A stretch of 38,427 nucleotides of DNA from an uncultured Clostridia bacterium (GCA_948528155.1 CAOSZT010000002.1:1-38427), one strand, 5' to 3'. Shown: positions 3,781 to 35,021, counted from the stretch's first letter. Notes: a model not told the origin generated them from the letters alone. Program-made: numbers and translations.

Positions 3781-3806
3781 ATTAGTATGAAAAATTGTAG
3801 GTAACG

Positions 3807-19094: not shown

Positions 19095-19129
19095 ATAGGG
19101 CTAGTTTAGATAATCTATTCTAGCCTTAT
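19095..19129 (+). terminator. weak terminator-like hairpin after the adhesin stop
   Basis: ATAGGGCTAG / CTAGCCTTAT, 10 bp with one G-U pair. No clean T-tract, so read-through into the ArdC array is plausible. Confidence 0.35.
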
Positions 19130-19204
19130 ATATTATTTAAACAAGAATTTATTAACCTAAATTTTTATTTAAGTAATATATGAAACAAAAGAAAAGGTGT
19201 CAAA

Positions 19205-19895
19205 ATGAAGGAAAATAAGGAATATGAAGAATTTTTAAAAGAATTAGATTTAGGTACTGGAAGATATAAAAAGAAAGATGTTTTTAAAGATTTTATTATT
19301 ATATTAGCATTAGGAATTGATAATAAATATTATAAAAACAATGAAAGTGAAAAAGTTGCTTGTCAAATAGTAGAAAAATATACAAATAGCGAAAGAGAAA
19401 GATTTTTTCTTTTATCATATAAATTAAAAGAGATGTATAACAAAAAAAATGAAATTGTTGATATTTTAGGCGATATATATATGCAATTAAATGCACAAAA
19501 TAAAGAATTAGGACAAGATTTTACTTCTTATAGTATTACAAAATGTATGACAGAGCAACTTGAAATAGATGATAAGGTAATTAAAGAAAAAGGATATATG
19601 ACATTAATAGAACCAAGTTGTCGGATCAGGTGCATTAATATTATCAATGGCAAACAAACTAAAAACGAAAGGATATGATTATACAAGTGAAATGTTGGTA
19701 ATTGCAAGTGATGTGGATTCAATATGTGCTTATATGACTTATATACAACTTTATATTTATAACATACCAGGTGTAGTAAAGATAGAAAATTCATTAACAA
19801 AAGAAAGTAGAAAAGTATTTTATACACCAAGATTATTAGATGGTAGAAATATAGAAAATTTACAACAGACAGAAGAAAAAGAATTAGGAGAGTGA
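19205..19895 (+). pseudogene. N6-adenine-methylase-like (gamma-class motif X and I-III) gene interrupted by a +1 frame break at nt 19622; no NPPY motif
   Basis: ORF 19205..19678 has LGDIYMQL...LGQDFTSYSITKCM and ..LIEPSC. Frame 3 continues GSGALILSMANKL...VIASDVD...IENSL. Skipping C19622 (AGT TGT c GGA TCA GGT) restores the canonical EPSCGSG motif I. Confidence 0.65.
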
Positions 19896-19901
19896 TTATG
19901 T

Positions 19902-20924
19902 ATGCCTGTTAATACAAAAGAAAAAGTAAAAAAAGAAAATAAAAAGAAAAATGCAAAACAAATCATAGAGGAAAACAGAAAGAAAATTGTTGAAAAATTA
20001 ATTTCTAATATGGAAAAAGGATATATATTTTCAGAATGGGCGTGGAATAAACAAGCTTTTATTCCTAGAAATGCTGTAACTGGAACAAAGTATCAAGGAA
20101 TAAATAGATTAAATTTAAGTTTTGCTTCAATGGAAAATGGATATGAAGATCCTAGATGGCTAACATTTAAAAAAATACAGGAAATGGGATATAAATTAAA
20201 AGAAGGTTCAACAGGAGTATTCTGTGAAAAATGGATATGGCAAAAAGTACAAAAAGTTGTAAATCAAGAAACAGGAGAAGTTGAAAAAGATGAAAACGGA
20301 AAAGAAAAATATGAAATAGTAGAACTAAAAAGACCAATAATTAATTATTTTTATTTATACAATGCTAGTCAAATTGAAGGAATAGAACCATATATCAGTA
20401 ATGAAAAGATTGAAAAGTCAGATATAACAAATGTTGCAGACAGTTTTATGGTATCTTCAGAATGTCCTATAAAGGAAAAATTTCAAGATAGAGCTTTTTA
20501 TAGTCCAATGGAAGATAGTATAACACTACCACCTAGAAGATTTTTTAAATCAGATGAAGCTTTTTTAGGAACACTTTTACACGAAATGAGCCATAGTACA
20601 GGACACGAAAGTAGATTAAACAGAGATATAAAAAATAAATTTGGAACAGAAAAATATGCAATGGAAGAACTAACAGCTGAATTATCTTGTGTATTTTTAG
20701 AAGCAGAACTTGATATGAATTTAGATTTTACTAGACAAGAGCATATTAATTATTTTAGTTCGTGGATTAAAGCATTAAAAAATGATCCTAATGAATTATA
20801 TAAGGTGTGTAGTAATGCTAGTAAAAGTTGTAATAGGTTAATGGAGAATTATGAAAAAGTGATAGCTTTTGAAAATAAACAAGAAAAAAATAAAGATGAA
20901 GAAGAGATGGAAGAAGCTATCTAA
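19902..20924 (+). CDS. ardC: ArdC-type anti-restriction protein (N-terminal ssDNA-binding domain plus C-terminal zincin metalloprotease)
   Basis: ArdC-N-like WNKQAFIPRNAVTGTKYQGINRLNL...DPRWLTFKKIQEMGYKLKEGS and metallopeptidase motif LLHEMSHSTGHESRL. Confidence 0.85.
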   Translation: MPVNTKEKVKKENKKKNAKQIIEENRKKIVEKLISNMEKGYIFSEWAWNKQAFIPRNAVTGTKYQGINRLNLSFASMENGYEDPRWLTFKKIQEMGYKLKEGSTGVFCEKWIWQKVQKVVNQETGEVEKDENGKEKYEIVELKRPIINYFYLYNASQIEGIEPYISNEKIEKSDITNVADSFMVSSECPIKEKFQDRAFYSPMEDSITLPPRRFFKSDEAFLGTLLHEMSHSTGHESRLNRDIKNKFGTEKYAMEELTAELSCVFLEAELDMNLDFTRQEHINYFSSWIKALKNDPNELYKVCSNASKSCNRLMENYEKVIAFENKQEKNKDEEEMEEAI

Positions 20925-20945
20925 AAGAGAAGAGGTACAAAAGAT

Positions 20946-21521
20946 ATGAAAACAATGAAAGATTGGAAAAAATCAGGAATAGATAATTTTGAGGATTTTG
21001 TTTTACCAGGAGATGTAGTTGGAGAAGATTTTATAGAATACTTTAGAAATTTAACAACTCCAAAGATAGATAATACTTATATAATGCAAATGGGAGAGCC
21101 ACAAAATGTTATTGATAAAAAATATGTATATATGACTTTTACAAAGGAATGTAAAGGTTGGGTATATAGAGGAAATTGTTATAAAGGCGAAAAACAAACA
21201 CTTTTTGAAAAATGGTTAAATACTTTTATAGAAGAAAAAGACATTGATATTTTAGAAGAATTTAAAAGTACAAAAGATGGTATATCAAAAATATTTACAT
21301 ATGAAGAGGTATTAAATAACTTTAAAATGACATCAGAAAGAGAACAACAAGAGATAAAAGAAAAAATGATAAAAATTGATTTTTATAATGCAGATGTTAA
21401 AGAGTTCATAAGACATATGTCAAGGGCATTATTACCAAGTCGAGAAGAAGTTAAAAAATTAGAAGAAATATATGGAAAGAGTATTAATTTGGAAATTGAA
21501 GATGAAGAGGAAAGTATATGA
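20946..21521 (+). CDS. hypothetical protein (191 aa)
   Basis: GAGGT RBS. Acidic tail. No motif recognised. Confidence 0.65.
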   Translation: MKTMKDWKKSGIDNFEDFVLPGDVVGEDFIEYFRNLTTPKIDNTYIMQMGEPQNVIDKKYVYMTFTKECKGWVYRGNCYKGEKQTLFEKWLNTFIEEKDIDILEEFKSTKDGISKIFTYEEVLNNFKMTSEREQQEIKEKMIKIDFYNADVKEFIRHMSRALLPSREEVKKLEEIYGKSINLEIEDEEESI

Positions 21522-22654
21522 GTGAAAAAGTTCAATATAGTGCTATAGTAAAAGCAAAAGTTAAAAATATAAATGATAAAGAAGAAAGTGATTTATATTT
21601 ATTATGCAGACAATATAGTGATGAAAAAAAAGTAAAAATTGAAAATGAAGGATTAGATATTATTTTAGATAAAGGTTCTTTTGAAGACTTAGTATTTTTG
21701 AATGATTGTGAAATTTTAGAATTTGAACATATCGCTAATGTCTATAGTATATCAGAACTTAAAGAATTTTGTGATAAATATAATTTAACTGATATTAGTA
21801 AATGTATGAAAGGAAAACAACTAGATTGCTGTGGACTATTAATAAATGAGTATTTAGAGCCTTTAGGTTATGAAGAAGAGTTAGAAGACTATGAGATTGA
21901 ATATAATAAGACTGTTTCAAGACAAATAAGAGATGAAAAAAAATACCAAGCAAAGGGAGAAATAATACAAGGTTTATCAGAAGAAGAAATATACGAAATA
22001 ATTGGTGGATATTTAAAATCACTTTTAGAAGAACAAGATATAAATACAGATATAGTAGATATTCAAATTATAGGATCAAGACATAAAGGAATTGCAAAAG
22101 ATACTTCAGACTTAGATGTATTAATAGAATTTAACAATGATAGATATGGGGAAGATAGCCTATTTAATAGTTTAAATGATGAAGAAAACAGATTAGAAAT
22201 TAATGGAATACCTGTTGACTTCAATCCGATTACTCCATCAAAATCTGGAACAATAGATGAATGGCTACAAAGAAATTATAATTATGATAAGTACAAAGAA
22301 AATATGAAAGAATATGCAAGATATATTATTGATTGTTTAAAAGAAAAATTTAAAGATGAAATTAGTTATGTATATAAAATTACTTTTTTAAGAGATGAGA
22401 AGAATGATAGATATACTGTTTCTTTGGCAATAGATATAGATAATAATGGAAATAAAAATCAAATAAATTTTATTTCTGCTAATAAATTTTATAAAATGAA
22501 TCACAATGAGCAAGTAAAATATATTGGGAATTTTTATAATGCGTCTATCATAGGAAAAAGAAAAGAAGAGTTTGGATATGATGAAGCAAAAAAAGATTTT
22601 TTACTAATGTGTGATTTTAATTATACAAGAGATAAAGAAGAGGAGGAATTATAA
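21518..22654 (+). CDS. nucleotidyltransferase-domain protein (minimal pol-beta-fold NTase core embedded in a 378-aa protein)
   Basis: IIGSRHKGIAKDTSDLDVLIEF ... PVDFNPI fits the G-S-x(9-13)-D-x-D plus third acidic residue signature. ATGA overlap with the upstream gene. Confidence 0.6.
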   Translation: MSEKVQYSAIVKAKVKNINDKEESDLYLLCRQYSDEKKVKIENEGLDIILDKGSFEDLVFLNDCEILEFEHIANVYSISELKEFCDKYNLTDISKCMKGKQLDCCGLLINEYLEPLGYEEELEDYEIEYNKTVSRQIRDEKKYQAKGEIIQGLSEEEIYEIIGGYLKSLLEEQDINTDIVDIQIIGSRHKGIAKDTSDLDVLIEFNNDRYGEDSLFNSLNDEENRLEINGIPVDFNPITPSKSGTIDEWLQRNYNYDKYKENMKEYARYIIDCLKEKFKDEISYVYKITFLRDEKNDRYTVSLAIDIDNNGNKNQINFISANKFYKMNHNEQVKYIGNFYNASIIGKRKEEFGYDEAKKDFLLMCDFNYTRDKEEEEL

Positions 22655-23992
22655 ATGGAGAATGTAAATAATGAAAATATCAAGCTTCTTTTTTATGAAG
22701 GAATAAATTTTTTACAATTCCAAATTGAATTACTTGCAGAGAAAAATGAAAATTTAAAAAATTATACATATATTCAATATATTGAAAAAAATACACCACT
22801 AATAGTAAATGAAACAATTACAAAGATAATAAATAAAGATGATTTTACAGAAAAAGTTACAAAACTGGCAAATATATTTACTGATATAAAAGATTATATG
22901 CAGTTAAAAGTAAAAGAGATTGAAAACAGTAAATTGTATATAACGAAAGAACTTCAAGATGTTTTTACAGACTATACAAATATGTTATTTAATAATTTAG
23001 ATAGTTTTGATTTACACGAAAGCTTTAAAGGTTGGACTGAAGATGGCACAATTTATAATACAAGAGCAGAAGAACGTATAATTTCTTCTCATAGAGCAGG
23101 AACAGAAACGTTATTATTAAATCACTTTGCAGAGAATTTAGATAAGTTTACTTGGCAACTTGCAGATTTATTAGATGAATTTTTGCAACTAACAAAAGAC
23201 AATAATAGAGAAGAAAAACCAGAACTTAATAAAGAAATTATGACTAACTTAATAAAAATGAAAGACGATTTTAAAGTAGGAGATAAAAAAACATTTTTAT
23301 ACAAAAATAGTAATGGCAATATATGGGAACTTACTATAAGAAGAGAAGAAGAAATATATGAACCTTTTAAATTTGCAATAGTAGGAACAAAAGTAGGTAC
23401 AAATCAAACTTGGAGTAGAAGATATACAGATATAAAAAAAGCACTTTTACATATAGTAAATGATTTTAATGAAAATGCTAATATAAAAAATAGATATAGT
23501 AATATAGAAGAATACTTAAACGAAAAAATTAAATTAATATATAAATACGAAGAAAATGGCAATTACTATTATGAAGATGAAAATGAGAATTTATATTGTG
23601 AAAATGGAAATCAAAATGTAGGCGAAATATGTTTAATGTATTGCACAAAAGAGTATGGAGAGCCTATATGCGAGGTTGAAAATTTAGAAAAATATGAATT
23701 AGTTAATAATCCAAAAAATAATCCTAATTATGAAAGAAAAAAAGCTAACGAATATAATTATATGATGTTAGATAGATTAAGATCTGATTGTGATTACTTT
23801 TTAGGCAATGGAAATGGATTTTTAGGTCATCTTTATTACAAAGATATAGATAAACATATAGAAGAAATGAAGAAAATATATGAAGCTTTTTCAAATGAAG
23901 AAAAACCAGAATGGATAAGCTTAGAGGATATAAATAATTATAAAGAAAGAATGTGTGAAATGTTAGAAAAGAATGAGGAAGAAGAAATATGA
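22655..23992 (+). CDS. hypothetical protein (445 aa) with a conserved-looking C-terminal module
   Basis: GAGGAGG RBS. C-terminal YNYMMLDRLRSDCDYFLGNGNGFLGHLYYKDIDKHIEEMKKIY..KPEWIS resembles a module I recall from conjugative-element polyvalent proteins. Name not verifiable here. Confidence 0.65.
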   Translation: MENVNNENIKLLFYEGINFLQFQIELLAEKNENLKNYTYIQYIEKNTPLIVNETITKIINKDDFTEKVTKLANIFTDIKDYMQLKVKEIENSKLYITKELQDVFTDYTNMLFNNLDSFDLHESFKGWTEDGTIYNTRAEERIISSHRAGTETLLLNHFAENLDKFTWQLADLLDEFLQLTKDNNREEKPELNKEIMTNLIKMKDDFKVGDKKTFLYKNSNGNIWELTIRREEEIYEPFKFAIVGTKVGTNQTWSRRYTDIKKALLHIVNDFNENANIKNRYSNIEEYLNEKIKLIYKYEENGNYYYEDENENLYCENGNQNVGEICLMYCTKEYGEPICEVENLEKYELVNNPKNNPNYERKKANEYNYMMLDRLRSDCDYFLGNGNGFLGHLYYKDIDKHIEEMKKIYEAFSNEEKPEWISLEDINNYKERMCEMLEKNEEEEI

Positions 23993-24945
23993 GTAATAAA
24001 AATTATAAATATGATGGAACAGATACTTTCCCTAAAAAAATAAGAACATCAGATGGTTATATTTTAACAAAAGTAAATGATGGAATATATGAAAATAATT
24101 TTTTACCACAATATAGATATAAAAGAGGAGAGGTTACTCTGATTCCTGATGTAGAAAAATATGAAGTTATAATTGAAAAGAATGAATATAGATTTTATAT
24201 CTATGATTGGATACTAGGACAACAGTTAATAACCATAGACACGGATAAGAAAAAAAGTAAAATAGATGGCTTTAATATATATGGTCAATGCTATTCATTG
24301 GGAGATAAATGGAAAAAAATAACTTCAGCTATGATAAAAAGGACTACACAAAGAATTGGCTATCTTTATGACGATTTTATAGAAAAGCATTTTGTAAATC
24401 CTAATTACCATTTGTATAAAAAACTATTGTTTAAATCAAATGACTATAACGAATGTATAAAATTTTTAGCTGATTATGGAGCTGAAAATCTTAATAATAG
24501 TATATATAAGGGCGAAGAATATGACAAAATATATAAAGAATATTATAAATCCTATTTGGATATTCCAGAAAACAAAATTGGAGAGATACTAAAAGATGGA
24601 ACTGTAAGAAAAGAGTATTTTCAAGAAGGGCATATATATAAAAATATTTGTAATTTTTATAGACAAGATGGAATTTGTTACATTGCAGAAGGACAAGCAG
24701 ATAAAATAGATAAAAATAGCAAACTAGGAGAAGACTATGAAACATATCAAACAATATATGAAAAAGTAAAAGAAGCTTATGAAAAAGCAGGAATCAATGA
24801 AAAGAAATACAAGCTTAAAGATTTTGTAGCAACAATATTTAATGATTTGAATTGGCAATCAGTTGAAGCTTTAACAATGGATTCAATTGAAGCATTAGAT
24901 GATGAATATTTTTTGGATTATGAAGAAGAGCTTGAAAAGGAGTAA
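23989..24945 (+). CDS. hypothetical protein (318 aa)
   Basis: ATGA overlap with the upstream gene. GAGGAA RBS. Confidence 0.65.
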   Translation: MSNKNYKYDGTDTFPKKIRTSDGYILTKVNDGIYENNFLPQYRYKRGEVTLIPDVEKYEVIIEKNEYRFYIYDWILGQQLITIDTDKKKSKIDGFNIYGQCYSLGDKWKKITSAMIKRTTQRIGYLYDDFIEKHFVNPNYHLYKKLLFKSNDYNECIKFLADYGAENLNNSIYKGEEYDKIYKEYYKSYLDIPENKIGEILKDGTVRKEYFQEGHIYKNICNFYRQDGICYIAEGQADKIDKNSKLGEDYETYQTIYEKVKEAYEKAGINEKKYKLKDFVATIFNDLNWQSVEALTMDSIEALDDEYFLDYEEELEKE

Positions 24946-24956
24946 TAAAATATATT

Positions 24957-25166
24957 ATGAAAAAGGAAAGTATAAAAGAGAAAATAGAAAACTGTTTATT
25001 TGTATTAGATTTTGATACACAAAGAATGAGTACAGGTGGAAGGGAATCTTATAATGAATTAAAAAAAATTGTGGTGGATTTATATAATGATAATATTAGA
25101 ATGATAGATCAAATCAGAAGTTATGGAATAGAAAATGCTAAAAATGAGGAGAAGGAAGAAATATGA
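24957..25166 (+). CDS. hypothetical small protein (69 aa)
   Basis: ORF between coupled genes. AGGAG 14 nt upstream. Acidic tail. Confidence 0.5.
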   Translation: MKKESIKEKIENCLFVLDFDTQRMSTGGRESYNELKKIVVDLYNDNIRMIDQIRSYGIENAKNEEKEEI

Positions 25167-25954
25167 GTTACGAAATAGTAAAAAGTGTAGTAATAAAAGA
25201 TGGAAAGGTTTATACAAGACAAGAAAGTAATAATGTATCTCCAAAAGATTTTTGTAGTTGTGAGAATCCTGGTCTAACTAAACTATTAAAAAATAATGGA
25301 ACGATTGCAATATATAAATTATTAATAGAATTGAGTTTAGAAGGTTCAGTACATTTTAGTGTATCTGGAAATAAAATTGTAAATCAATTAAATCAAATCT
25401 CTAACAGTTTATATAATGATGAAAATTATAAAAAGATAAAAAATAAAGTTGATGAATTAGAGAACAAAATATGGAAATGTGAAGATGAAAAAGAAAAAGA
25501 CACTATAAGGGAAGAATTAGGTAGTAAAAGGCAAATTTTAGAAACATATATAGATCAGTATGTTAGAAGTTGCTTTAATGAAAAAATAAAAATTCCACAA
25601 TCAATAAAACAAGAACTAAATAATGTAAAAGAGATGTATGAAGAAGATTTAGAAAATGACGAAGAAGATGTATTTGGTGGAACAGAGGATAGTTATGCTA
25701 ATGAAATGTTAGGACAACATTTATATGATGTTTTTAATCAAGAAAACATAGAGAAAATTATGGCATTAAACAACAATATGTATACAGTATTAGATATAAA
25801 TTATAGAAACAAGAGTTATGAAGAAATACGAGATCAAATAACAGATAAATTAATAGAAAAGACAACTTATAATATTGATAATTTAGGTAGTTTTATAGAG
25901 GTAATAGAAGATGAAAAAGAGAAAGGAGAAGTTGATGAGCAAGATATTCTTTAA
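25163..25954 (+). CDS. hypothetical protein (263 aa)
   Basis: ATGA overlap. GAGGAGAAGGA RBS. Confidence 0.65.
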   Translation: MSYEIVKSVVIKDGKVYTRQESNNVSPKDFCSCENPGLTKLLKNNGTIAIYKLLIELSLEGSVHFSVSGNKIVNQLNQISNSLYNDENYKKIKNKVDELENKIWKCEDEKEKDTIREELGSKRQILETYIDQYVRSCFNEKIKIPQSIKQELNNVKEMYEEDLENDEEDVFGGTEDSYANEMLGQHLYDVFNQENIEKIMALNNNMYTVLDINYRNKSYEEIRDQITDKLIEKTTYNIDNLGSFIEVIEDEKEKGEVDEQDIL

Positions 25955-26411
25955 AAGATTATTAGAAGAAACATTAATAGCAAATGAAATGGAAATTTCA
26001 GAACAAGAAAAAGAAGAGTTTATAAATAATTGTGAAATTTTGACATCAGATATTTATTTTTACTATAACTTATTATTAAATACAAAAGATAGAGTTGGGA
26101 TTATATATTTAAAAGAGAAATATCCTAATAATTTTATTGTAAATGGACTATTAGAAAGTCAAATAAAGTATTTTGAGTTAAATAAGAAAGATAATGAAGA
26201 TTTATATTTCAAATTTTGTGATATATTCATAAGTTTTTATGGATTGGATCATAAAGATGTAAAAGAAAAATTGGAAAATATGACAAAAAGAGAAACTAGA
26301 AATAGATTTTGTGAGTGTAATAAAGAACGAATCAAAGAGTATGAAGAAAAATATTCAAATTTAGTAAAAGAATATAAAATGAAAGAGCAAGAGGAAATTA
26401 CTTTAATATAA
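25935..26411 (+). CDS. hypothetical protein (158 aa from ATG 25935; ORF track start 25911)
   Basis: AAGGAGAAG lies 4 nt upstream of ATG 25935, whereas 25911 has no RBS. Confidence 0.6.
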   Translation: MSKIFFKRLLEETLIANEMEISEQEKEEFINNCEILTSDIYFYYNLLLNTKDRVGIIYLKEKYPNNFIVNGLLESQIKYFELNKKDNEDLYFKFCDIFISFYGLDHKDVKEKLENMTKRETRNRFCECNKERIKEYEEKYSNLVKEYKMKEQEEITLI

Positions 26412-26507
26412 AAAGTAACTACAAGCTATTTTTTACGGCTTTCAGAATATTAAAAAATTTGTCGAAAAATAATATACTATAATTATAAAAAAGAAAGGTA
26501 GTATGTT

Positions 26508-26858
26508 ATGGAATTAGCAGTAGATTATTTAAGTATTGGAGATAGAATAAGAGAAAGAAGAAAATTTTTAAAATTAAGTCAAGAAAATTTAGCAAATGAA
26601 ATTGGTGTTTCTGCTTCATTTATATCTGATATTGAAAACGGAAGAAGAAAAATGAGTTTAGAAACAATGATAAAAATATCAATAGCACTAGATACAAGTT
26701 TAGATTATTTAGTTTTAGATAATAGAAATAGTCATAAAATAAAAAGTGAAACTAAGCTAGTAGAATTAAAAGGTATGCTAGAAAAAGTAGACATTGAAGC
26801 AGGAGAATTATTTTTAGATTTAACATTAAATTCTGCAAAGTTTTTAGCAAATAGATAA
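26508..26858 (+). CDS. XRE-family helix-turn-helix transcriptional regulator (116 aa)
   Basis: LSQENLANEIGVSASFISDIENGRRKMSLETMIKISIALDTSLDYLV is a canonical HTH_XRE. Own RBS AAAGGTAG. Sits directly upstream of promoter cassette 3. Confidence 0.85.
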   Translation: MELAVDYLSIGDRIRERRKFLKLSQENLANEIGVSASFISDIENGRRKMSLETMIKISIALDTSLDYLVLDNRNSHKIKSETKLVELKGMLEKVDIEAGELFLDLTLNSAKFLANR

Positions 26859-26861
26859 ATA

Positions 26862-26931
26862 GTATACATAACCTTTTGCAAAAACGTTGCAAAATACTGC
26901 AGTATACATTCAGTTTTTAATGTGTTAATAT
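26862..26931 (+). promoter_or_regulatory. TTGCAAAA-box promoter cassette, copy 3
   Basis: GTATACATAACCTTTTGCAAAAACGTTGCAAAATACTGCAGTATACA, 17 nt spacer, TGTTAATAT (hexamer 26926..26931). Confidence 0.65.
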
Positions 26932-26949
26932 TATATCATAGACAAATTG

Positions 26950-26983
26950 GAGAAAGAAGATTTTATTTCTTTCTCTATTTTTT
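26950..26983 (+). terminator. leader hairpin plus T-tract between promoter cassette 3 and the SpoVG-like gene
   Basis: GAGAAAGAA / TTCTTTCTC 9 bp stem, 8 nt loop, then TATTTTTT. A further TTGCAAAA sits at 26985..26992, just before the RBS. Confidence 0.5.
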
Positions 26984-27010
26984 GTTGCAAAAAAAGTAGG
27001 AGGTTTTAAT

Positions 27011-27637
27011 ATGAGTATTAAAGTTAAGTCATTAGGACTTGTAAAAAATGAAGAAATCGAAATAAAGGCAATAGCTTCTTTAGAAGCAGATGGAATAAGA
27101 ATTGATGGAATCAAAATAAACGAAAGTCAAAATGGTAATTTATATTTACAATTTCCAGAAAGAAAATTTAAAAAGAAAGATAGTGAAGAATTAATTACTA
27201 CTAAATTAATGTTTGCAGATAATGAAGTATTTAAGAAGATTAGTGAAACATTAATTAAAGCTTATCAAGATAAGAAAGAAAAAGGAGAATTTGAAATACA
27301 AGAAATAGAAACTTCAAAACAAGGAGTATCAATATCACAAGCTAATCCATTACAAGATCAAAGTAAAAAAACAAAAGCAATGGTTAGTATAGATGTAAAC
27401 GGAATCCACTTAAAAGATATAAGATTAAATGAAAATAATCAAGGGAATTTATATTTGCAATTTCCTAATAAAAAAACAAAAGAAGAAGAATATAAGGATA
27501 TGTTTTATCCAACTAATACAGATCTTAGAAAGCAATTAACAGATGAAGCTATTAATATTTATCAAGAAAAATTGATGGCAAAGGAATTTGATGAATCAGC
27601 AAAAGCTCAAGAAATGGACGAGGGAGAACGAGAATAA
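27011..27637 (+). CDS. tandem SpoVG-domain nucleic-acid-binding protein
   Basis: Two SpoVG-like units: IEIKAIASLEADGIRIDGIKINESQNGNLYLQFPERK... and KAMVSIDVNGIHLKDIRLNENNQGNLYLQFPNKK..YKDMFYPTNTDLRKQLTDEAINIY. Compare B. subtilis SpoVG ..[41 protein letters not shown]..AV...Y, from memory. Confidence 0.65.
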   Translation: MSIKVKSLGLVKNEEIEIKAIASLEADGIRIDGIKINESQNGNLYLQFPERKFKKKDSEELITTKLMFADNEVFKKISETLIKAYQDKKEKGEFEIQEIETSKQGVSISQANPLQDQSKKTKAMVSIDVNGIHLKDIRLNENNQGNLYLQFPNKKTKEEEYKDMFYPTNTDLRKQLTDEAINIYQEKLMAKEFDESAKAQEMDEGERE

Positions 27638-27726
27638 TGACTAATTCTACAAAAATAAAAAATGCAATTGACTTCACAACTACAAGTTTTGGAAATGTAG
27701 ATAAAATAATAGAGGAAGGACAATAG

Positions 27727-27927
27727 ATGAAAAAAGAAATAAACATAGTAGTACAGATATATCCAAAAGAAAAAGTAGTATATATGGCAGAGGAATCATC
27801 ATCAGGAGCGAGTTATAAATTTGATAATATAAATGATTTAACTGAAAGTATAAGTTTTTATTTGAATAATTATTATAAAAATGAAATTGAAGGAACTAAA
27901 GAGGATATTGAACAACAAGAAGTATAA
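27727..27927 (+). CDS. hypothetical small protein (66 aa)
   Basis: GAGGAAGGA RBS. Confidence 0.5.
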   Translation: MKKEINIVVQIYPKEKVVYMAEESSSGASYKFDNINDLTESISFYLNNYYKNEIEGTKEDIEQQEV

Positions 27928-27954
27928 AAAGAATAAAGAGAGGAATAGAGATTT

Positions 27955-28356
27955 ATGAGAAGATTAGAATTATTACAAAGTCCTTTTTATAAGCAAAAAT
28001 TTAAAAATATATATCAGTTACTTTTTAAAGCTGATTTAGAAGATATTACGGATTGTTCATATTGGCATATAAAAAATCCTAGCATAGTTGAAAAAAATCA
28101 ACCATTATGGATTATTGTAGAAAGCAAAATTATAAACAAAAGGATATGGATTACTAAAAATTGTGGAGAACTTAAAATAACAACTGCTAGACTAGATTTA
28201 GATATAGATAGTAGAGAATATCACGAAAGTTATGAAAGAAAAAAATTTAAAAATCAGAGTGAAATGAGTAGTTATTTAGAACAATTATTAGAACCTTGCA
28301 TTAAAGGATATGAACAAGAATTAAAAGAGTGGGAAATGGAAGAGGAAAGAGAATAA
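27955..28356 (+). CDS. hypothetical protein (133 aa)
   Basis: GAGGAA RBS. Acidic tail. Confidence 0.6.
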   Translation: MRRLELLQSPFYKQKFKNIYQLLFKADLEDITDCSYWHIKNPSIVEKNQPLWIIVESKIINKRIWITKNCGELKITTARLDLDIDSREYHESYERKKFKNQSEMSSYLEQLLEPCIKGYEQELKEWEMEEERE

Positions 28357-28397
28357 TTTATATGATTATAAATTGAGATATAAAGGAAGAAAATTAG

Positions 28398-29642
28398 ATG
28401 AATAATGATATAAAAATATCAAGAGTGATAGAAGATAAAGAACTATTAAGAGAATTGAAAATAAGTGAAAAAGATGTATTTAAAGCAATAAAATGTGGAA
28501 TAGAACAAATAGATGAATTACAAAAAATAATAGATGAAGAAAAGGAAAAAGGAACAAGTTTTCAAGAATTAAGCCACAAATTAAAAGGGCAAAATGAAAA
28601 TTTTAATAAAGATGGAATCTATTCACACAATTATTTTGATTTAAACTATGAATCATTATTAGTAACTATATACCAAAATACACAAGAGAATAGATTTGAA
28701 GTTGATAAAAGTGATGTATATATTTATCCAGATAATATTAGTAAAGTTTCAACAGAGGAATTGTTTGTTTTAGATTTAAGAAAGCCAATCAATATAGAGA
28801 AGTTTCAAGAATATATTACTGAAGATATAGAAAAAGTATTATTAAAGAACTATTATTCTGATATTAAAGATATAAGTAATATATACATAATTGCTTATGC
28901 TTTAAATACTAAAAGTAATTTTGCAAACAAATATATAAGAAAAGGAAAACTAACAGAAGAAAATTTTCAAAAAGTATTTAAAGAAGGAAAAGATATATTT
29001 AACACAAAAGAATGTTCAGAGTTTAAAATAGCAATGTTTAATGGAGAAAATAATCAATTTATATGTGAATATTCTTTTGATGGTTACAATTTTGAAAAAC
29101 AAATTAGCAATAATATATTTGAAGCACCTAAATTAGTAAGCTGTTTAACAGATAATGAATTATTAAATAAGAGAAGGAATAAGGAAAAATTTTGCACTAA
29201 ACAAATAATAGATAAATGTTTATTAAATGATTATAAAAGTATAAATGAAATACCAGATATAGAAATCCATACAAAGATTAGTTCTAATAAATATATACAA
29301 GAAAAAGAAGTGGAATTTGAAGATGGAATTTTAATACAAAATGGAGTTATAAATGCACTAACAACATTAGACGCAGGTCAAATAGAGAAAAATTTTGGAT
29401 TAAAAGAATTGAATTATGATGAGGATTATTATGACGCTTATTTAGATTATGATAGTAAAAATGATAGTTGTGAAATAACGATTGTAGCTGTTACAGATGA
29501 TAGTAGGCATTATTATACATATTTACCTAAATCAGAAGAAAAAGAAATGTTAAGAAAATCATTAGAAGAATATGTTAAATCAATTGAAGGAAAAAATTTA
29601 AAAGATTTATTTGAAGAAATAGAAGAAATAGAGCAAGAATAA
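28398..29642 (+). CDS. hypothetical protein (414 aa)
   Basis: AAGGAAG RBS, long ORF, acidic tail. Confidence 0.7.
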   Translation: MNNDIKISRVIEDKELLRELKISEKDVFKAIKCGIEQIDELQKIIDEEKEKGTSFQELSHKLKGQNENFNKDGIYSHNYFDLNYESLLVTIYQNTQENRFEVDKSDVYIYPDNISKVSTEELFVLDLRKPINIEKFQEYITEDIEKVLLKNYYSDIKDISNIYIIAYALNTKSNFANKYIRKGKLTEENFQKVFKEGKDIFNTKECSEFKIAMFNGENNQFICEYSFDGYNFEKQISNNIFEAPKLVSCLTDNELLNKRRNKEKFCTKQIIDKCLLNDYKSINEIPDIEIHTKISSNKYIQEKEVEFEDGILIQNGVINALTTLDAGQIEKNFGLKELNYDEDYYDAYLDYDSKNDSCEITIVAVTDDSRHYYTYLPKSEEKEMLRKSLEEYVKSIEGKNLKDLFEEIEEIEQE

Positions 29643-29677
29643 AGACAACACAAAAAATGAACTATAAGGAGATACAA

Positions 29678-30487
29678 ATGGAGAAAGATATTAAAGAACA
29701 AATTAATATAATTAATGCAAAAGAAGATATAAAAAAATTAGATCTGCTATATAGAAAAATATTAGATACTGATTTTAGTAATGAAAAATCAATTAGTTTA
29801 AAAGAGGATATTGCAAGTCAAATAGATAGAAAAATAGTTGAACTAATGAAAGAATATCATATATCCAATGAAGAATATTCAGAATTAATCTTTGAAAATA
29901 GAGATTATAAAAAAATAGAGAAAAGAACACAGCAAATGGCAGAAGATAGATACAATATGATATGGGAAAATTGCTCTTCAAAAGAAATTGTAGATATATT
30001 AAGAAACAGCTATTCTTATACTGATGAAGAAATAATAGAAGAATTTGTTGATGAAGAAGTTCGAGAAGAAATAGAAAACTATTTATTAGAATTAACAGAA
30101 AGAGAAGAAGCTCCTAAAAATGTAATGTTAGATAATGGATATACTTTCGTATTTGAAAATGGATATTATTTTTCTAAAATGAAAGAGATTTGTGAATATA
30201 GTCAAGATTTTGCAAGGATTCCAAATGGAAAAGAATTTGCAATTATCACTAATGCAGAAGTTACTAAAGAAGCTTTTTTAGTAAAGTGCGATCATAATAT
30301 AGAAATTGTATTTAATTTTCTAAATCAAAATTCAAACGAAATGGAAACCTACAAAACTAATGTATTTAATATGAACAAAATCAATTCTAAAGAAGAATTA
30401 ATAGAAAAAATGAAAGAAAATTTAGAAAAATTTGAAAAAGAATACAATAAATTAGAACAAGACGAAGAAAATATGGAGGTTGAATAA
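29678..30487 (+). CDS. hypothetical protein (269 aa from ATG 29678; ORF track start 29657)
   Basis: AAGGAG at 29666..29671 is 6 nt upstream of ATG 29678. ATG 29657 lacks an RBS. Confidence 0.65.
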   Translation: MEKDIKEQINIINAKEDIKKLDLLYRKILDTDFSNEKSISLKEDIASQIDRKIVELMKEYHISNEEYSELIFENRDYKKIEKRTQQMAEDRYNMIWENCSSKEIVDILRNSYSYTDEEIIEEFVDEEVREEIENYLLELTEREEAPKNVMLDNGYTFVFENGYYFSKMKEICEYSQDFARIPNGKEFAIITNAEVTKEAFLVKCDHNIEIVFNFLNQNSNEMETYKTNVFNMNKINSKEELIEKMKENLEKFEKEYNKLEQDEENMEVE

Positions 30488-30500
30488 CCAGGAGGAGTAA

Positions 30501-31340
30501 ATGGGATCTGATTATATAAAAAATTTAAGAATAGATATAAAAAATAATATGATGACTGCAGATATTGCAGATATGAAAAGCTATCCTATTACTTTTGATA
30601 ATGTAGAACTTTATAAGAAGAAAGAAAGCTTTGAAGAAAAATATAGTGCGTTAATATTTGATATTGTTTCAGGTATGCTACATTTTACAAATAGCTCTCA
30701 CAAACTTGCTAAGTTAGGTTTTGGAGAAAAAACAGCTGTTGAACTTAAAAATTACTATGATGATTATAGAGTATTAGGTTCAATCGGTGTTTATAAAAAA
30801 TACGAGAATAAAATAAATCAGATATTAAATAATGGAATTGAGGGAAGAAAGCTTGAAATTATTCCATCAGAAGTGGAACTACACTATAAAATGGAAACTT
30901 TACCTAACAGGAGTTTTAAAGATATAAGCAAATTATTTTATTCCCTTGAATCAATTACAGAGAATAATAGTCTATCAATTAGAGAAAAGAAACATTTGTA
31001 TGAAGAAATGATAAATAAAGAATTAAGTGAAGAAGATAGGAAAAAACCTTTATTTATTCAGTATAACAAAGATAATCCAGACATAATTGTTTCTGTATAT
31101 CCAATTATAAAAAAGAATACATACAAAGATGATGTATTTTTAACCTATTATTTTGATATTAAAAACTTGAAAACTAATTATGAAAAAATTTATGACGATA
31201 TTGGAATGATGATTAGTTATATTTTAGATGATGAATTAATGACTAAACAGGTTTTGCACGGAATGGAGCAACAATTTATAGAAGATGAAAGAAAAGAAAA
31301 AAATAAATATATTGAGGAAGAAAATTGTGAATTACTTTAA
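30501..31340 (+). CDS. hypothetical protein (279 aa)
   Basis: AGGAGG RBS. Confidence 0.7.
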   Translation: MGSDYIKNLRIDIKNNMMTADIADMKSYPITFDNVELYKKKESFEEKYSALIFDIVSGMLHFTNSSHKLAKLGFGEKTAVELKNYYDDYRVLGSIGVYKKYENKINQILNNGIEGRKLEIIPSEVELHYKMETLPNRSFKDISKLFYSLESITENNSLSIREKKHLYEEMINKELSEEDRKKPLFIQYNKDNPDIIVSVYPIIKKNTYKDDVFLTYYFDIKNLKTNYEKIYDDIGMMISYILDDELMTKQVLHGMEQQFIEDERKEKNKYIEEENCELL

Positions 31341-31357
31341 AACAGGAGGAAACAAAT

Positions 31358-31996
31358 ATGGATTTACATTATGAAATTGAAAAATATGACTTTACATTAG
31401 AAGAAAATTTACAACAATGGGAAACAATAAAAAAATTAAAACCAAAAGAAATGAATGAGTTAATATTCCAAAATATGATACAACAAGCAAGATTAGATAA
31501 CAAGATGATAAGTAGTTTTGACAACAATAATGTATTACAATGTAAAAATTTAATATATATGGGAGCAAATAAACAATATTTATATGATTATGTTTCTGGA
31601 ATTGGTGGTCGTAAATTAACAATGGTACAAGGTTGGTTACTAGAAGATTTGCATAATATACGAAAAGAAAAGCATTACCCATATGTATATGATAGGGAAA
31701 TTTCGGATATAAGAATTATTAATAAAAATGAATATAAAACATTACTTGATAAATTTGAGAAAAAGGAAGAATTTTCGTTTGATGAAAAAGATTGTTTCTT
31801 ATTAGAAGAATATGAAGATGGTAGAAAAATGTATATTGCAATAGATAATTCTACAAGCAATATGTGGGTAGAAGAATTTTTAGAAAAAGAAACAGCTGAA
31901 AGATATTTAAAAGGAGAAAATATTGATAAATTAAGAGAAGAAATGATTTCAGAAGATAAAGCTTCAGAAACAGAAGAAATAGGAGAGCAAGAATAA
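31358..31996 (+). CDS. hypothetical protein (212 aa)
   Basis: AGGAGG RBS. Its stop directly abuts the methyltransferase start. Confidence 0.7.
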   Translation: MDLHYEIEKYDFTLEENLQQWETIKKLKPKEMNELIFQNMIQQARLDNKMISSFDNNNVLQCKNLIYMGANKQYLYDYVSGIGGRKLTMVQGWLLEDLHNIRKEKHYPYVYDREISDIRIINKNEYKTLLDKFEKKEEFSFDEKDCFLLEEYEDGRKMYIAIDNSTSNMWVEEFLEKETAERYLKGENIDKLREEMISEDKASETEEIGEQE

Positions 31997-32755
31997 ATGA
32001 AGATAGATATAAAATTAGGGGATTGCATAAAATTAATGAATGATATTGAAGATAGTTCAATTGATTTAATTTTATGCGATTTGCCTTTTCAAAAGACAAA
32101 AAATGAATGGGATAAGATAATACCTTATGAAGAACTTTGGAAGCAATATAATCGAATTATAAAGGAAAATGGAGCTATCGTTTTATTTAGTCAAGGATCT
32201 TTCTATATTGATTTAGTAAATAGCAATAGAAAGTATTTTAGATATGATTTAATTTGGGATAAACAACTAACAACAGGATTTTTAAATAGTAATAAACAAC
32301 CATTACGAAAACACGAACAGATTGCAATATTTTACAAAAAACAACCTACATATAATCCTATCTTTAGAGAAGGTAAGCCATTGCATAGCAAAGGTATATC
32401 TTATAAAACAGCTAATATAAAAAATAATAATTATGGAAAATTTGATATGTTAGATGATTATAGACAAGGAAGTACAAAGAAATATCCTACATCTATAATA
32501 TCAATACAAAAAGTACACCCTTCTAAAACAATACACCCTACTGAAAAACCACTTGAATTAATTCAATACTTAGTAGAAACATATACTAATCCAGGAGAAA
32601 AAGTTTTAGATAATTGTATGGGATCTGGAACAACAGCAATAGCCTGTTTAAATTGTGCAAGAAATTTCATTGGAATTGAAATAAATGAAAACTACTATAA
32701 CCTAGCAAGTGAGAGAATATATAAAACAATTTTTAAGGAGAAAAGAAATGATTGA
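31997..32755 (+). CDS. beta-class N6-adenine / N4-cytosine DNA methyltransferase, no cognate endonuclease seen in the window
   Basis: Motif order IV then I. IDLILCDLPF (a variant of D/S/N-PP-Y/F), HPTEKP, VLDNCMGSGTTAIACLNCARNFIGIEINENYY. Confidence 0.85.
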   Translation: MKIDIKLGDCIKLMNDIEDSSIDLILCDLPFQKTKNEWDKIIPYEELWKQYNRIIKENGAIVLFSQGSFYIDLVNSNRKYFRYDLIWDKQLTTGFLNSNKQPLRKHEQIAIFYKKQPTYNPIFREGKPLHSKGISYKTANIKNNNYGKFDMLDDYRQGSTKKYPTSIISIQKVHPSKTIHPTEKPLELIQYLVETYTNPGEKVLDNCMGSGTTAIACLNCARNFIGIEINENYYNLASERIYKTIFKEKRND

Positions 32756-34685: not shown

Positions 34686-35021
34686 ATGAAAGAAATAAAT
34701 CAAGAAATAGTGAATAAAGGTAAAAATGCTGTTCAAAAATTACTAAAAGATATATTTAAGAATTATGATACAACAGTAAAATCACGTTTAGATAGAATAG
34801 AATATAAAAAATCAATTTACAATAGTAAAGCGTGGTTAGAGAAAGAAATTGATAATTTAGGTTATTCAGATTTATTAAGTTGTATGCTTGATATAGAAGA
34901 TGAATTTGAAGGTATAAAAGATTTTATTGATGAAAAACTAAATCAAATAGATATATTTAAACAGCAATATATGGATATACAGGAAGATAAAACGGAAGAG
35001 GAAGAGGAAGAAGAAAGATAA
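34686..35021 (+). CDS. hypothetical protein (111 aa) ending in TEEEEEEER
   Basis: GGGAGG RBS. Last gene of the array. Confidence 0.6.
   Translation: MKEINQEIVNKGKNAVQKLLKDIFKNYDTTVKSRLDRIEYKKSIYNSKAWLEKEIDNLGYSDLLSCMLDIEDEFEGIKDFIDEKLNQIDIFKQQYMDIQEDKTEEEEEEER

What the first reader, a model, noticed from the sequence alone, without database searches (positions are those of the whole stretch)
19205..26411. ArdC-led array of stand-alone modules resembling a disassembled polyvalent anti-defence protein
Ten tightly coupled genes (ATGA overlaps at 21518, 23989 and 25163) run from the methylase-like gene through ArdC (ssDNA-binding N-domain plus HEMSH zincin). They include an NTase-domain protein and a protein whose C-terminal MLDRLRSDCDYFLGNGNG module I recall from giant polyvalent proteins of conjugative elements. 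Six further proteins are unassignable. In other elements ArdC-N, zincin, methylase and NTase domains occur fused in single polyvalent proteins delivered to or expressed early in recipients. Leading regions of conjugative plasmids are also known to concentrate anti-defence genes. Here the same logic seems to be spread over separate small genes, so the six unknowns (20946, 22655, 23989, 24957, 25163, 25935) are good candidates for new anti-restriction, anti-CRISPR or anti-abortive-infection functions.
Basis: inference. Interest (0 to 1): 0.72.

Follow-up and report, generated by a model that had tools for sequence, protein, structure and literature searches.

The report
ArdC-led gene array of shuffled modules
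A mobile DNA element from gut Clostridia carries a tightly packed run of small genes built from protein pieces that other elements fuse into giant invasion-helper proteins; this fits a pattern already described, and no anti-defence role has been shown for the unknown genes.

Summary
Region 19205-26411 contains ten co-oriented, tightly coupled ORFs. The three ATGA overlaps, ArdC (ArdC-N plus HEMSH zincin), a Pol-beta NTase and an LPD11 module are all confirmed. Two corrections apply. The two "methylase" ORFs are halves of one frameshifted gene, so there are nine genes. That gene also lacks a canonical NPPY motif.

The array lies in a roughly 65-kb integrative conjugative element of uncultured gut Clostridia. 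Close relatives supply a MobL relaxase, T4CP, VirB4/VirB6-like genes and a pilin; the window supplies the tyrosine integrase.

New evidence supports the "disassembled polyvalent protein" reading at the level of architecture:
- The NTase core matches the NTase module of a 3,234-aa polyvalent protein.
- A sister element fuses 20946 + NTase core + LPD11 into one 403-aa protein.
- Other proteins fuse 20946-N or the NTase C-domain to the C-module of 23989.
- LPD11 keeps its position while its N-terminal partners change.

Four unknowns (23989, 24957, 25163, 25911) have no family, defence-model or fold match, yet all tested ones evolve under purifying selection.

Anti-defence function and a "leading region" position are not shown. 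Solo versions of these domains were already described (Iyer 2017), so this is a new member of a known kind.

The parts
19098..19185 (+). Conserved double hairpin between the adhesin gene and the array. The first hairpin is GGGCTAG...CTAGCC followed by a U-rich run. The second is an AU-rich hairpin of about 22 bp.
   Evidence: RNA fold -30.9 kcal/mol, z = -6.2. The same two hairpins occur in four sister elements whether the next gene is the methylase-like gene or ardC; differences sit mainly in the loops. Nucleotide identity is 85-91%, similar to the flanking genes. A regulatory role is inferred only.
19205..19895 (+). Small HsdM-like 'N-6 DNA methylase' family gene, frameshifted (extra base at 19622): a pseudogene in this lineage.
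   Evidence: Two ORFs match consecutive parts of phrog_5696. The repaired product has GQDFT and EPSCGSG motifs. The split is present in independent assemblies. An intact 235-aa homologue in L056 matches only positions 3-103 of 311 of PF02384. The family has N-x-L...YTP where NPPY would be. Homologues occur on 2,128 PLSDB plasmids, 1,473 of them conjugative.
19902..20924 (+). ArdC: ssDNA-binding ArdC-N domain plus zincin metallopeptidase (HEMSH, aa 227-231).
   Evidence: PF08401 and PF18818. phrog_7245 'anti-restriction protein', E 8.5e-69. Solved R388 ArdC 6I89/6SNA, E 1e-31 over aa 28-318.
20946..21521 (+). Protein of two modules: N module (aa 1-84) and phrog_6004 module (aa 86-163).
   Evidence: The two modules hit different plasmids and phages separately. 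The whole protein is fused to the NTase core and LPD11 in P0001. The N module is fused to the 23989 C module in P0097. The phrog_6004 module is fused to a 29657-like protein in L021-L029 and stands alone in L013.
21518..22654 (+). Minimal Pol-beta nucleotidyltransferase with extra modules: N part (aa 1-130), NTase core (aa 131-275), C domain (aa 260-377).
   Evidence: PF01909. GS-x10-DLD motif at aa 186-200. Core matches the NTase module of a 3,234-aa polyvalent protein, E 2.5e-24. The C domain is a separate 127-aa gene in L021-L029 and is fused to the 23989 C module in P0080.
22655..23992 (+). LPD11-tailed protein: N part (aa 1-186), mid domain (aa 187-288), linker, LPD11 (aa 360-433).
   Evidence: PF18824, E 2.2e-27. 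Sister elements carry mid+LPD11 (193-200 aa), mid+linker+LPD11 (259 aa), N+LPD11 (333 aa), mid+LPD11+extension (312-319 aa), or 20946+NTase+LPD11 (403 aa). The mid domain occurs alone on a Priestia plasmid and on faecal phage contigs.
23989..24945 (+). Unknown protein of three modules: A (aa 1-63), B (aa 64-190), C (aa 194-318).
   Evidence: Only 43 hits among 1.84 billion representatives, each covering one module, alone or in other combinations. The partner proteins scanned have no Pfam family except DUF4313. In the AlphaFold model, module C has pLDDT 93-98 and the rest is low. No match in PDB or BFVD. Homologues at 55-68% identity are in all sister elements.
24957..25166 (+). Unknown 69-aa protein.
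   Evidence: No family hit. Conserved at about 50-55% identity at the same position in L021-L029 and L054; absent from L013 and L056.
25163..25954 (+). Unknown 263-aa protein: a narrow family of uniform length.
   Evidence: 76 clusters, nearly all about 262 aa, 45-92% identical, no Pfam domain. AlphaFold model has pLDDT 81 and shows an N-terminal beta hairpin plus helices. No PDB match (best E 0.25, TM below 0.2). The N half is duplicated as a 155-aa gene in L021/L024. A distant C-half homologue sits beside primase and relaxase genes in another ICE, L053.
25911..26411 (+). Unknown 166-aa protein (alternative start at 25935 gives 158 aa).
   Evidence: No family hit. Homologues only in L056 (57%) and L054 (45%); replaced by an unrelated gene or absent in the other sister elements. 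dN/dS 0.24.
26508..26858 (+). XRE-type HTH_3 regulator that follows the array in every sister element.
   Evidence: PF01381, E 3.4e-15. Same position in L013, L021-L029, L054 and L056. A repressor role analogous to Reg of p576 or to anti-CRISPR-associated repressors is inferred only (PMC8708921).

Best explanation
The region is the ArdC-led accessory ('establishment') segment of an integrative conjugative element of about 65 kb in uncultured gut Clostridia. It encodes solo and few-domain versions of the domains that other conjugative elements join into large polyvalent proteins: ArdC-N plus zincin, a minimal Pol-beta NTase, LPD11 and a truncated HsdM-like methylase domain. It also encodes several uncharacterised small modules from the same recombining pool.

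Shown:
- the domain identities;
- the conjugative nature of the element family;
- purifying selection on the genes that could be compared;
- conserved linkage to ardC among close relatives;
- fusion and fission of the modules between sister elements.

Inferred:
- The genes are translated as one coupled unit, because each Shine-Dalgarno sequence lies inside the end of the preceding gene. Their products would then appear together, which gives the 'coeval action' that a polyvalent protein achieves by covalent linkage.
- ArdC binds the incoming single strand and counters type I restriction in the recipient, as R388 ArdC does.
- The NTase nucleotidylates a protein target, as proposed for this clade.
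- LPD11 acts as a constant handle for interchangeable N-terminal heads.
- The remaining modules act on other host factors during establishment.

Only the ArdC step rests on an experimentally characterised homologue.
For: - Domain hits.
- NTase core matches the NTase of a 3,234-aa Eco57I-methylase/SNF2/NTase/DUF6926/MutS_I protein.
- Fusion proteins linking separate array genes: P0001 = 20946 + NTase core + LPD11; P0097 = 20946-N + 23989-C and P0080 = NTase C domain + 23989-C.
- LPD11 is constant while its N-terminal partners vary across six architectures.
- Conserved order adhesin - (methylase-like) - ArdC - variable slot with LPD11 - 23989-like - (69 aa) - 25163-like - HTH - SpoVG in L013, L021-L029, L054 and L056.
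- dN/dS 0.16-0.24.
- Element backbone, taken from relatives in which the 394-aa backbone protein is 87% identical (L030) and the T4CP 96% identical (L032 vs L030): MobL relaxase, T4CP, TrbL_4, T4SS pilin, VirB4-like ATPase and M23 hydrolase. The tyrosine integrase, the element boundary near 38397 and chromosomal flanking genes are.
- Other counter-restriction-type genes in the same co-oriented 38 kb: DarA_C and an orphan N6_N4 methylase, with Dam in the variable slot of sister elements.
- Embedded SD sequences and overlaps.
- Literature: solo NTase and LPD versions in firmicute conjugative elements (PMC5512222); ArdC is needed in the recipient against hsdRMS (PMC7213743 abstract); ardC-containing, highly variable establishment regulons made mostly of unknown genes in the pLS20 family (PMC8708921).
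Against: - No experiment or homology links 20946, 23989, 24957, 25163 or 25911 to any anti-defence activity. They lack hits in Pfam, PHROGs (apart from unannotated families), NCBIfam, PADLOC and PDB sequences. The two modelled proteins, 23989 and 25163, have no Foldseek match.
- The array is not next to the relaxase gene, and oriT is unknown.
- A natural variant (L010) lacks the whole array, so it is dispensable for maintenance.
- The methylase-like gene here and hsdR of the same element copy are frameshifted.
- One more distant element (L058) carries the 20946-N/23989-C fusion in an adhesin-led array with no detectable ArdC.
- The T4SS and relaxase genes were seen in relatives, not in the unseen part of the window's own contig.
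Confidence: 0.6

Rival explanations
1. Apart from ArdC, the unknown genes are ordinary ICE accessory or 'dark matter' genes with no counter-defence role. They might act in DNA processing, priming, regulation of transfer, exclusion or host-physiology modulation, and simply sit downstream of the adhesin gene.
For: There is no similarity to any known anti-defence protein. The array lies far from the relaxase gene. It is dispensable in a natural deletion variant. Modules also occur in an adhesin-led array without ArdC. A distant 25163-like gene lies beside primase and relaxase genes, which also fits a DNA-processing role.
Against: Linkage to ArdC, LPD11 and NTase is tight and conserved among close relatives, and the modules are physically fused to those domains. 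These are the domains assigned to early-invasion functions in PMC5512222. High gene-content turnover in a fixed slot is the pattern reported for establishment genes (PMC8708921).
Confidence: 0.25
2. The array encodes host-protective or addiction functions (defence, abortive infection, toxin-antitoxin) rather than counter-defence. For example, the minimal NTase could act as an MNT-type antitoxin.
For: The NTase is of the minimal type related to MNT antitoxins and NTox45 (PMC5512222). There are weak PADLOC hits to NTase-containing candidate systems (PDC-S09 and a cyclase; E 5e-5 to 6e-4). The same element carries a type I R-M system just upstream.
Against: The PADLOC hits cover only the 35-50 residues around the generic NTase motif, and no other array protein matches a defence model. 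By eye, I saw no HEPN-type RxxxxH motif in the adjacent modules; this was not run as a search. The closest NTase relative is a module of a polyvalent protein.
Confidence: 0.08
3. The array is a decaying, largely non-functional remnant in this copy of the element.
For: Frameshifts are present in the methylase-like gene and in hsdR. A 12.16-kb deletion variant exists in nature.
Against: Eight of the nine genes have intact frames with SD sequences and coupled starts. dN/dS is 0.16-0.24. An identical array was recovered from many independent samples.
Confidence: 0.05

Closest known systems
Polyvalent proteins of conjugative elements and their solo-domain relatives (Iyer, Burroughs, Anand, de Souza, Aravind 2017; PMC5512222)
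   Same: The domain inventory is the same: ArdC-N, MPTase-PolyVal zincin, minimal Pol-beta NTase, LPD11, adenine-methylase-like domain, and DarA_C nearby. The host range (Firmicutes) and the T4SS context also match. The paper explicitly describes solo NTase and LPD versions in related firmicute elements.
   Different: Here no polypeptide has more than two or three modules, and stop codons separate them. Several modules (23989 A/B/C, 24957, 25163, 25911, 20946-N, 22655 mid) match no Pfam family, including the LPD models that Pfam holds. Fusion and fission can be seen directly between sister elements.
ArdC of IncW plasmids R388/pSa (PDB 6I89, 6SNA; PMC7213743)
   Same: Two-domain architecture with an HExxH motif, and full-length sequence similarity at E 1e-31.
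   Different: About 30% identity by eye from the alignment. The host is a Gram-positive ICE. Activity has not been tested.
Establishment regulons of the pLS20/p576 family of Bacillus conjugative plasmids (PMC8708921, PMC6294495)
   Same: ardC is accompanied by a highly variable set of mostly unknown genes. A small repressor-type gene is associated. Conserved structured sequences lie upstream. The relaxase is MobL-type by Pfam; that pLS20 itself uses a MobL relaxase is from my own knowledge, not from the paper text read.
   Different: This is an integrated element, not a plasmid. There is no sequence similarity to EGeRS1 or EGeRS2 as far as can be judged, because their sequences were not compared. 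The regulator here is HTH_3, not RHH. Transient expression has not been tested.
Leading-region anti-defence islands of plasmids (Samuel and Burstein 2024; PMC11541004)
   Same: A strictly co-oriented gene run that contains an anti-restriction gene, orphan methylases and many uncharacterised families.
   Different: The position relative to oriT is unknown and probably 20 kb or more away. No ssDNA promoter was recognised.

Membership tests
ArdC anti-restriction protein | N-terminal ArdC-N ssDNA-binding domain | tested here: met
   PF08401, E 4e-22, 79 bits against a cut-off of 22.6
ArdC anti-restriction protein | C-terminal zincin metallopeptidase with HExxH | tested here: met
   PF18818, E 8.5e-37. 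HEMSH at aa 227-231. Aligned over both domains to solved ArdC 6I89/6SNA, E 1e-31.
ArdC anti-restriction protein | Protects transferred DNA from type I restriction in the recipient | not testable with these tools
   Needs a mating assay. The function is taken from PMC7213743.
Polyvalent protein (Iyer et al. 2017) | Many functionally diverse domains (2-15) joined in a single polypeptide | tested here: not met
   The modules are split over nine genes, each with its own stop and start. The largest product is 445 aa. Only ArdC has two catalogued domains.
Polyvalent protein (Iyer et al. 2017) | Domains drawn from the polyvalent inventory | tested here: met
   ArdcN, MPTase-PolyVal and LPD11 in the array, with DarA_C upstream. 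The NTase core matches the NTase of a 3,234-aa polyvalent protein, E 2.5e-24.
Polyvalent protein (Iyer et al. 2017) | Encoded alongside T4SS and relaxase genes of a conjugative element | tested here: met
   MobL relaxase, T4CP, TrbL_4, pilin and a VirB4-like ATPase were found in close relatives L030/L032. The corresponding part of the window's own contig was not seen.
Pol-beta superfamily minimal nucleotidyltransferase | hG[GS]-x9-13-Dh[DE]h signature and a Pfam NTP_transf_2 match | tested here: met
   GSRHKGIAKDTSDLDV at aa 186-201. PF01909, 29.6 bits against a cut-off of 21. PF18765 Polbeta scores only 17.6 bits, below its cut-off of 26.9.
LPD11 (PF18824) | Match to the family model above the gathering score | tested here: met
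   95.3 bits against a cut-off of 27, covering profile positions 2-69 of 69
N6-adenine DNA methyltransferase | Intact reading frame with SAM-binding motif I | tested here: not met
   An extra base at 19622 splits motif I (EPSC|GSG). The split is seen in independent assemblies.
N6-adenine DNA methyltransferase | Catalytic motif IV (D/N)PP(Y/F/W) and a target-recognition region | tested here: not met
   The family alignment shows N-(S/P/T)-L at that place and ends about 30 residues later. The intact homologue covers only positions 3-103 of 311 of PF02384.
Leading-region anti-defence island | Lies within the first roughly 30 ORFs transferred from oriT | tested here: inconclusive
   oriT was not located. 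The relaxase gene in relatives maps about 40 kb upstream of ardC, or at least about 20 kb round the other way (inference).
Leading-region anti-defence island | Genes co-oriented on one strand, with known anti-defence genes and orphan methylases | tested here: met
   All substantial ORFs over the 38 kb are on the + strand. ArdC, DarA_C and an N6_N4 methylase are present.
Leading-region anti-defence island | ssDNA (Frpo/ssi-type) promoter | tested here: inconclusive
   No Rfam match. The conserved hairpins upstream of the array have stems of about 22 bp or less, too short to carry both promoter hexamers. No dedicated Frpo model was available.
Known anti-phage defence systems (PADLOC) | Match of array proteins to defence-system models | tested here: not met
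   Only generic NTase-motif and HTH hits were found.

The most novel reading that the evidence does not exclude
LPD11 may be a constant docking or targeting handle that carries interchangeable N-terminal heads. The co-inherited trio 23989 / 24957 / 25163 and the other fold-orphan modules may be new families of counter-defence effectors. On this reading, these small ICE genes form a polymorphic effector system caught in the act of assembling into, or breaking out of, polyvalent proteins.
Probability: 0.2. Interest if true: 0.65.

Novelty: new member of a known kind. Interest (0 to 1): 0.38.

Why it matters
If the unknown modules do counter host defences, this element family offers a compact, naturally variable panel of candidates. 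There are six LPD11 architectures, a variable slot, and a natural deletion variant that could serve as a control. The family also gives direct examples of the fusion/fission route that was proposed for the origin of polyvalent proteins. As it stands, the finding mainly confirms an already described pattern in a new gut Clostridia ICE family.

Tried and rejected
- **Concatenated query, word-indexed protein search.** Low-complexity words saturated the candidate list, and only one (useful) hit was returned. This cost one of the three searches.
- **Megablast of the region against PLSDB.** No match.
- **LPD11 protein against IMG/VR.** No relative found.
- **ArdC against GTDB genomes.** Three loci, none sharing the other array genes.
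- **tblastn of the unknowns against plasmids and phages.** Nothing for 23989, 24957, 25163 or 25911.
- **Foldseek.** The 25163 model was searched against PDB; the 23989 model against PDB and BFVD. No hit had E below 0.1, and TM scores were about 0.2 or lower.
- **PDB sequence search.** For the NTase protein, only chance-level hits. For the methylase-like protein, only a weak hit to lmo1582 (2F8L).
- **PADLOC and Rfam.** Nothing specific.
- **Promoter scan.** Uninformative in 24% GC DNA (81 sites against 90 expected).
- **Exact DNA pattern in JGI metagenomes, to walk upstream.** No match.
- **Recombination between paralogous methylase genes as the cause of the L010 deletion.** Rejected: the flanking genes are unrelated and the junction is a microhomology of about 10 bp.
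- **Acidic C-termini as a secretion or DNA-mimic signal.** Considered, but the more economical explanation is that the next gene's Shine-Dalgarno sequence is embedded in the coding end. D/E count in the last 10 residues is 4.15 when the next gene is within 25 nt and 2.85 otherwise, and GAG is enriched in the tails. That explanation is incomplete.
- **The upstream hairpin region as unusually conserved.** Rejected: its identity is similar to that of the flanking genes.

Full report
**What is in the sequence.** The window has 24% G+C, and every substantial ORF lies on the + strand. Between 19205 and 26411 there are ten ORFs, with gaps from -44 to +21 nt. ATGA overlaps are present at 21518, 23989 and 25163, and there is a direct TAA-ATG junction at 22654/22655. 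Each start codon is preceded by a GAGG-type Shine-Dalgarno sequence that lies inside the last codons of the preceding gene.

- ArdC (19902-20924) carries ArdC-N (E 4e-22) and the MPTase-PolyVal zincin (E 8.5e-37), with HEMSH at aa 227-231. It aligns over its full length with the solved R388 ArdC structure, E 1e-31.
- The 21518 product has a Pol-beta NTase domain: PF01909 above its cut-off, and GS-x10-DLD at aa 186-200.
- The MLDRLRSDCDYFLGNGNG stretch of the 22655 product is Pfam LPD11, 95 bits.

**The methylase-like gene.** The first two ORFs are one gene. An extra base at 19622 breaks it inside motif I (EPSC|GSGALIL).
- The split is present in independent assemblies, and the gene is intact (235 aa) in sister locus L056.
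- Even the intact protein covers only the first third of PF02384. Where NPPY should be it has N-x-L...YTP.
- The family is nevertheless widespread. It occurs on 2,128 PLSDB plasmids, 1,473 of them conjugative, and is annotated there as 'N-6 DNA methylase' of about 220 aa.

**What the element is.**
- Source: the identical array occurs on a 73-kb contig of an NCBI MAG (GCA_948491035.1) and in several independent metagenome assemblies.
- Right end: a tyrosine integrase with an HTH_17 gene. Similarity to other copies stops at about 38397, where chromosomal genes (prfB-like, yabP, yabQ, divIC, rho) begin.
- Upstream of the window: an M23 peptidase gene and a type I R-M system whose hsdR is split in this copy.
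- Relatives: in L030 the 394-aa backbone protein is 87% identical to the window contig's, and the T4CP of L032 is 96% identical to that of L030. There the backbone continues upstream as topoisomerase, ParB-like gene, MobL-type relaxase, BofA-like gene, T4CP, TrbL_4 (VirB6-like), T4SS pilin, a VirB4-like ATPase (P-loop_TraG/AAA_10) and M23 peptidase.
- Conclusion: this is an integrative conjugative element of roughly 65 kb in uncultured, spore-forming gut Clostridia.
- Caveat: I did not see the matching part of the window's own contig, so the backbone is inferred from relatives.

**Position relative to oriT.** Mapped onto that backbone, ardC lies about 40 kb downstream of the relaxase gene. Going the other way round the excised circle, the distance is at least about 20 kb. 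oriT was not located, so 'leading region' is not established. The uniform gene orientation is compatible with expression from the transferred strand, but this is inference only.

**The unknowns are mosaics of small modules.** Searches of annotated plasmids and phages, of 1.84 billion representative proteins and of sister loci split the 'unassignable' proteins into modules that occur alone or in other combinations.

| Gene | Modules |
|---|---|
| 20946 | N (aa 1-84) + phrog_6004 domain (aa 86-163) |
| 21518 | N (aa 1-130) + NTase core (aa 131-275) + C domain (aa 260-377) |
| 22655 | N (aa 1-186) + mid (aa 187-288) + LPD11 (aa 360-433) |
| 23989 | A (aa 1-63) + B (aa 64-190) + C (aa 194-318) |

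**Links between modules and to polyvalent proteins.**
- The NTase core matches, at E 2.5e-24, the NTase module of a 3,234-aa Prevotella plasmid protein. That protein also carries an Eco57I-type methylase, an SNF2 helicase, DUF6926 and MutS_I domains.
- In sister element L013 one 403-aa protein (P0001) joins the whole 20946 homologue, the NTase core and LPD11.
- P0097 joins 20946-N to 23989-C, and P0080 joins the NTase C domain to 23989-C.
- The NTase C domain is a free-standing 127-aa gene in L021-L029. The phrog_6004 domain is fused there to a 29657-like protein.
- LPD11 keeps its place while its N-terminal partners change: mid+LPD11 (193-200 aa), mid+linker+LPD11 (259 aa), N+LPD11 (333 aa), N+mid+LPD11 (445 aa, this window), mid+LPD11+extension (312-319 aa) and 20946+NTase+LPD11 (403 aa).
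- These fusions give the 'disassembled polyvalent protein' idea direct architectural support.

**What stays dark.**
- 23989, 24957, 25163 and 25911 have no hit in Pfam, NCBIfam or PADLOC. They also have no tblastn hit in PLSDB or INPHARED.
- 25163 belongs to a narrow family: 76 clusters, nearly all about 262 aa. Its AlphaFold model is good (pLDDT 81) but has no PDB neighbour.
- Module C of 23989 is modelled with pLDDT 93-98, yet has no neighbour in PDB or BFVD.
- The genes that could be compared with L056 are under purifying selection, dN/dS 0.16-0.24.

**Linkage to ardC.**
- Close relatives (L013, L021-L029, L054, L056) share one order: TED/SpaA adhesin, (methylase-like), ArdC, a variable slot that always contains an LPD11 protein, a 23989-like gene, (69 aa), a 25163-like gene, HTH_3, SpoVG-like.
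- The variable slot holds Dam in some relatives and the NTase in others.
- Further away the linkage loosens. A C-half homologue of 25163 sits between polyvalent-type methylase/helicase genes, a DUF3991-Toprim primase gene and NikA/relaxase genes in L053. The P0097 fusion lies in an adhesin-led array with no detectable ArdC in L058.
- A natural variant (L010) has lost 19594-31752 through a microhomology of about 10 bp, which truncates both flanking genes. The array is therefore dispensable for maintenance.

**Most likely mechanism.** This is an establishment or counter-defence segment built from solo polyvalent-protein modules.
- Translational coupling would deliver the products together, which is what covalent linkage achieves in polyvalent proteins (inference).
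- ArdC would bind the incoming strand and overcome type I restriction in the recipient, as shown for R388 ArdC (PMC7213743).
- The NTase belongs to the minimal clade predicted to nucleotidylate proteins (PMC5512222).
- For the remaining modules, only context speaks.
- Rivals: ordinary accessory functions (0.25), defence or addiction functions (0.08) and decay (0.05).

**Comparison with what is known.**
- Iyer et al. [quoted passage not shown] - The pLS20/p576 work describes ardC-containing establishment regulons that are highly variable and mostly of unknown function. These have associated repressors and structured upstream sequences.
- Samuel and Burstein 2024 describe co-oriented anti-defence islands with orphan methylases.
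- The present locus fits all three descriptions. It is not itself a polyvalent protein, because the single-polypeptide criterion fails.
- In the library searched, LPD11 is mentioned in a biological sense only in the 2017 paper.

**Verdict.** This is a new member of a known kind. It adds a clear natural series of module fusions and fissions, plus several fold-orphan candidate families. Interest is moderate (0.38).

Noticed in passing
window ~3712-3790, ~15535-15615, ~26862-26940, ~36650-36725: A nearly invariant block of about 60 bp (ACATAA..TTTTGCAAAAACCTTGCAAAATCCTGCAGTATAC...) followed by a -10-like GTGnTAnAAT lies upstream of four transcription units: the 3865 operon, the adhesin gene, the SpoVG-like gene and xis/int. 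Three copies are followed by a strong leader hairpin with a T-run (z -6.2, -4.2 and -1.9). This looks like a shared promoter/operator with attenuators, that is, an element-wide regulon. The ArdC array has no copy of its own.
   Followed up: partly
window 19594-31752 versus L010 4717-4732: A natural variant in a JGI metagenome lacks 12.16 kb, comprising the whole ArdC array and the next 5 kb. The deletion runs between two copies of AGAAAAAGGA and truncates the genes on both sides.
   Followed up: yes
window 141-563 and L007 6325-9664: The type I restriction subunit gene hsdR of this element copy is split into 622-aa and 507-aa ORFs, whereas it is one 1,112-aa gene in relative L030. Window ORF 141-563 is only its EcoEI_R_C tail. 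Together with the methylase-like frameshift, this copy carries at least two inactivated genes.
   Followed up: partly
window 19205-19895; L017 6986-7642; L018 6842-7504; L056 4817-5524: The approximately 220-235-aa proteins annotated 'N-6 DNA methylase' on 2,128 plasmids keep the HsdM-like motifs GQxFTP and CGSG. They have a conserved N-x-L...YTP instead of NPPY and lack a target-recognition region. They may not be methyltransferases at all; SAM binding or subunit mimicry are untested ideas.
   Followed up: partly
whole window, C-termini of most products: Most proteins end in acidic tails (EEEEI, EEEEL, EEIEQE and the like). The last 10 residues hold 4.15 D/E when the next gene starts within 25 nt, 2.85 otherwise, and 1.7 per 10 residues in protein bodies. 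GAG makes up 27% of Glu codons in the tails against 12.5% in the bodies. Embedded Shine-Dalgarno sequences explain part of this but not all, since tails also occur before long gaps, for example at 34686-35021. Homologues elsewhere show the same tails.
   Followed up: partly
window 900-1493, 1860-2147, 6804-7634, 9374-10378, 27011-27637, 31997-32755: The same co-oriented region encodes several other conflict-type or DNA-related proteins: a pentapeptide-repeat protein, a Cdd1/HhH protein, a PAPS-reductase-like protein, a DarA_C-domain protein, a tandem SpoVG-domain protein and an orphan N6_N4 methylase. Modules from these outer genes (4910, 27955, 30501) also turn up in the distant adhesin-led array L058.
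   Followed up: partly
window 13328-14569: A 413-aa protein with an N-terminal membrane segment has 27-35% identical homologues, annotated as hypothetical, on about 80 Enterococcus, Lactococcus and Lactiplantibacillus plasmids, most of them mobilizable.
   Followed up: no
L030 408-2568 and 7106-8798; L032 10001-12163 and 16727-18586: In relatives, the coupling-protein gene appears split in both loci. The VirB4-like ATPase is one 619-aa ORF in L032, but two ORFs (274 and 281 aa) occupy its position in L030; I did not align these to the L032 gene. Either many copies are decaying or these are assembly errors. This bears on whether the elements are still self-transmissible.
   Followed up: no
window 32709-33539 and 33571-34086; 9374-10378 and 29657-30487: There are paralogous pairs inside the window: 32709 with 33571 (36% identity over 160 aa, E 4e-25), and a weak shared segment between the DarA_C protein and the 29657 product (E 2e-4).
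   Followed up: no
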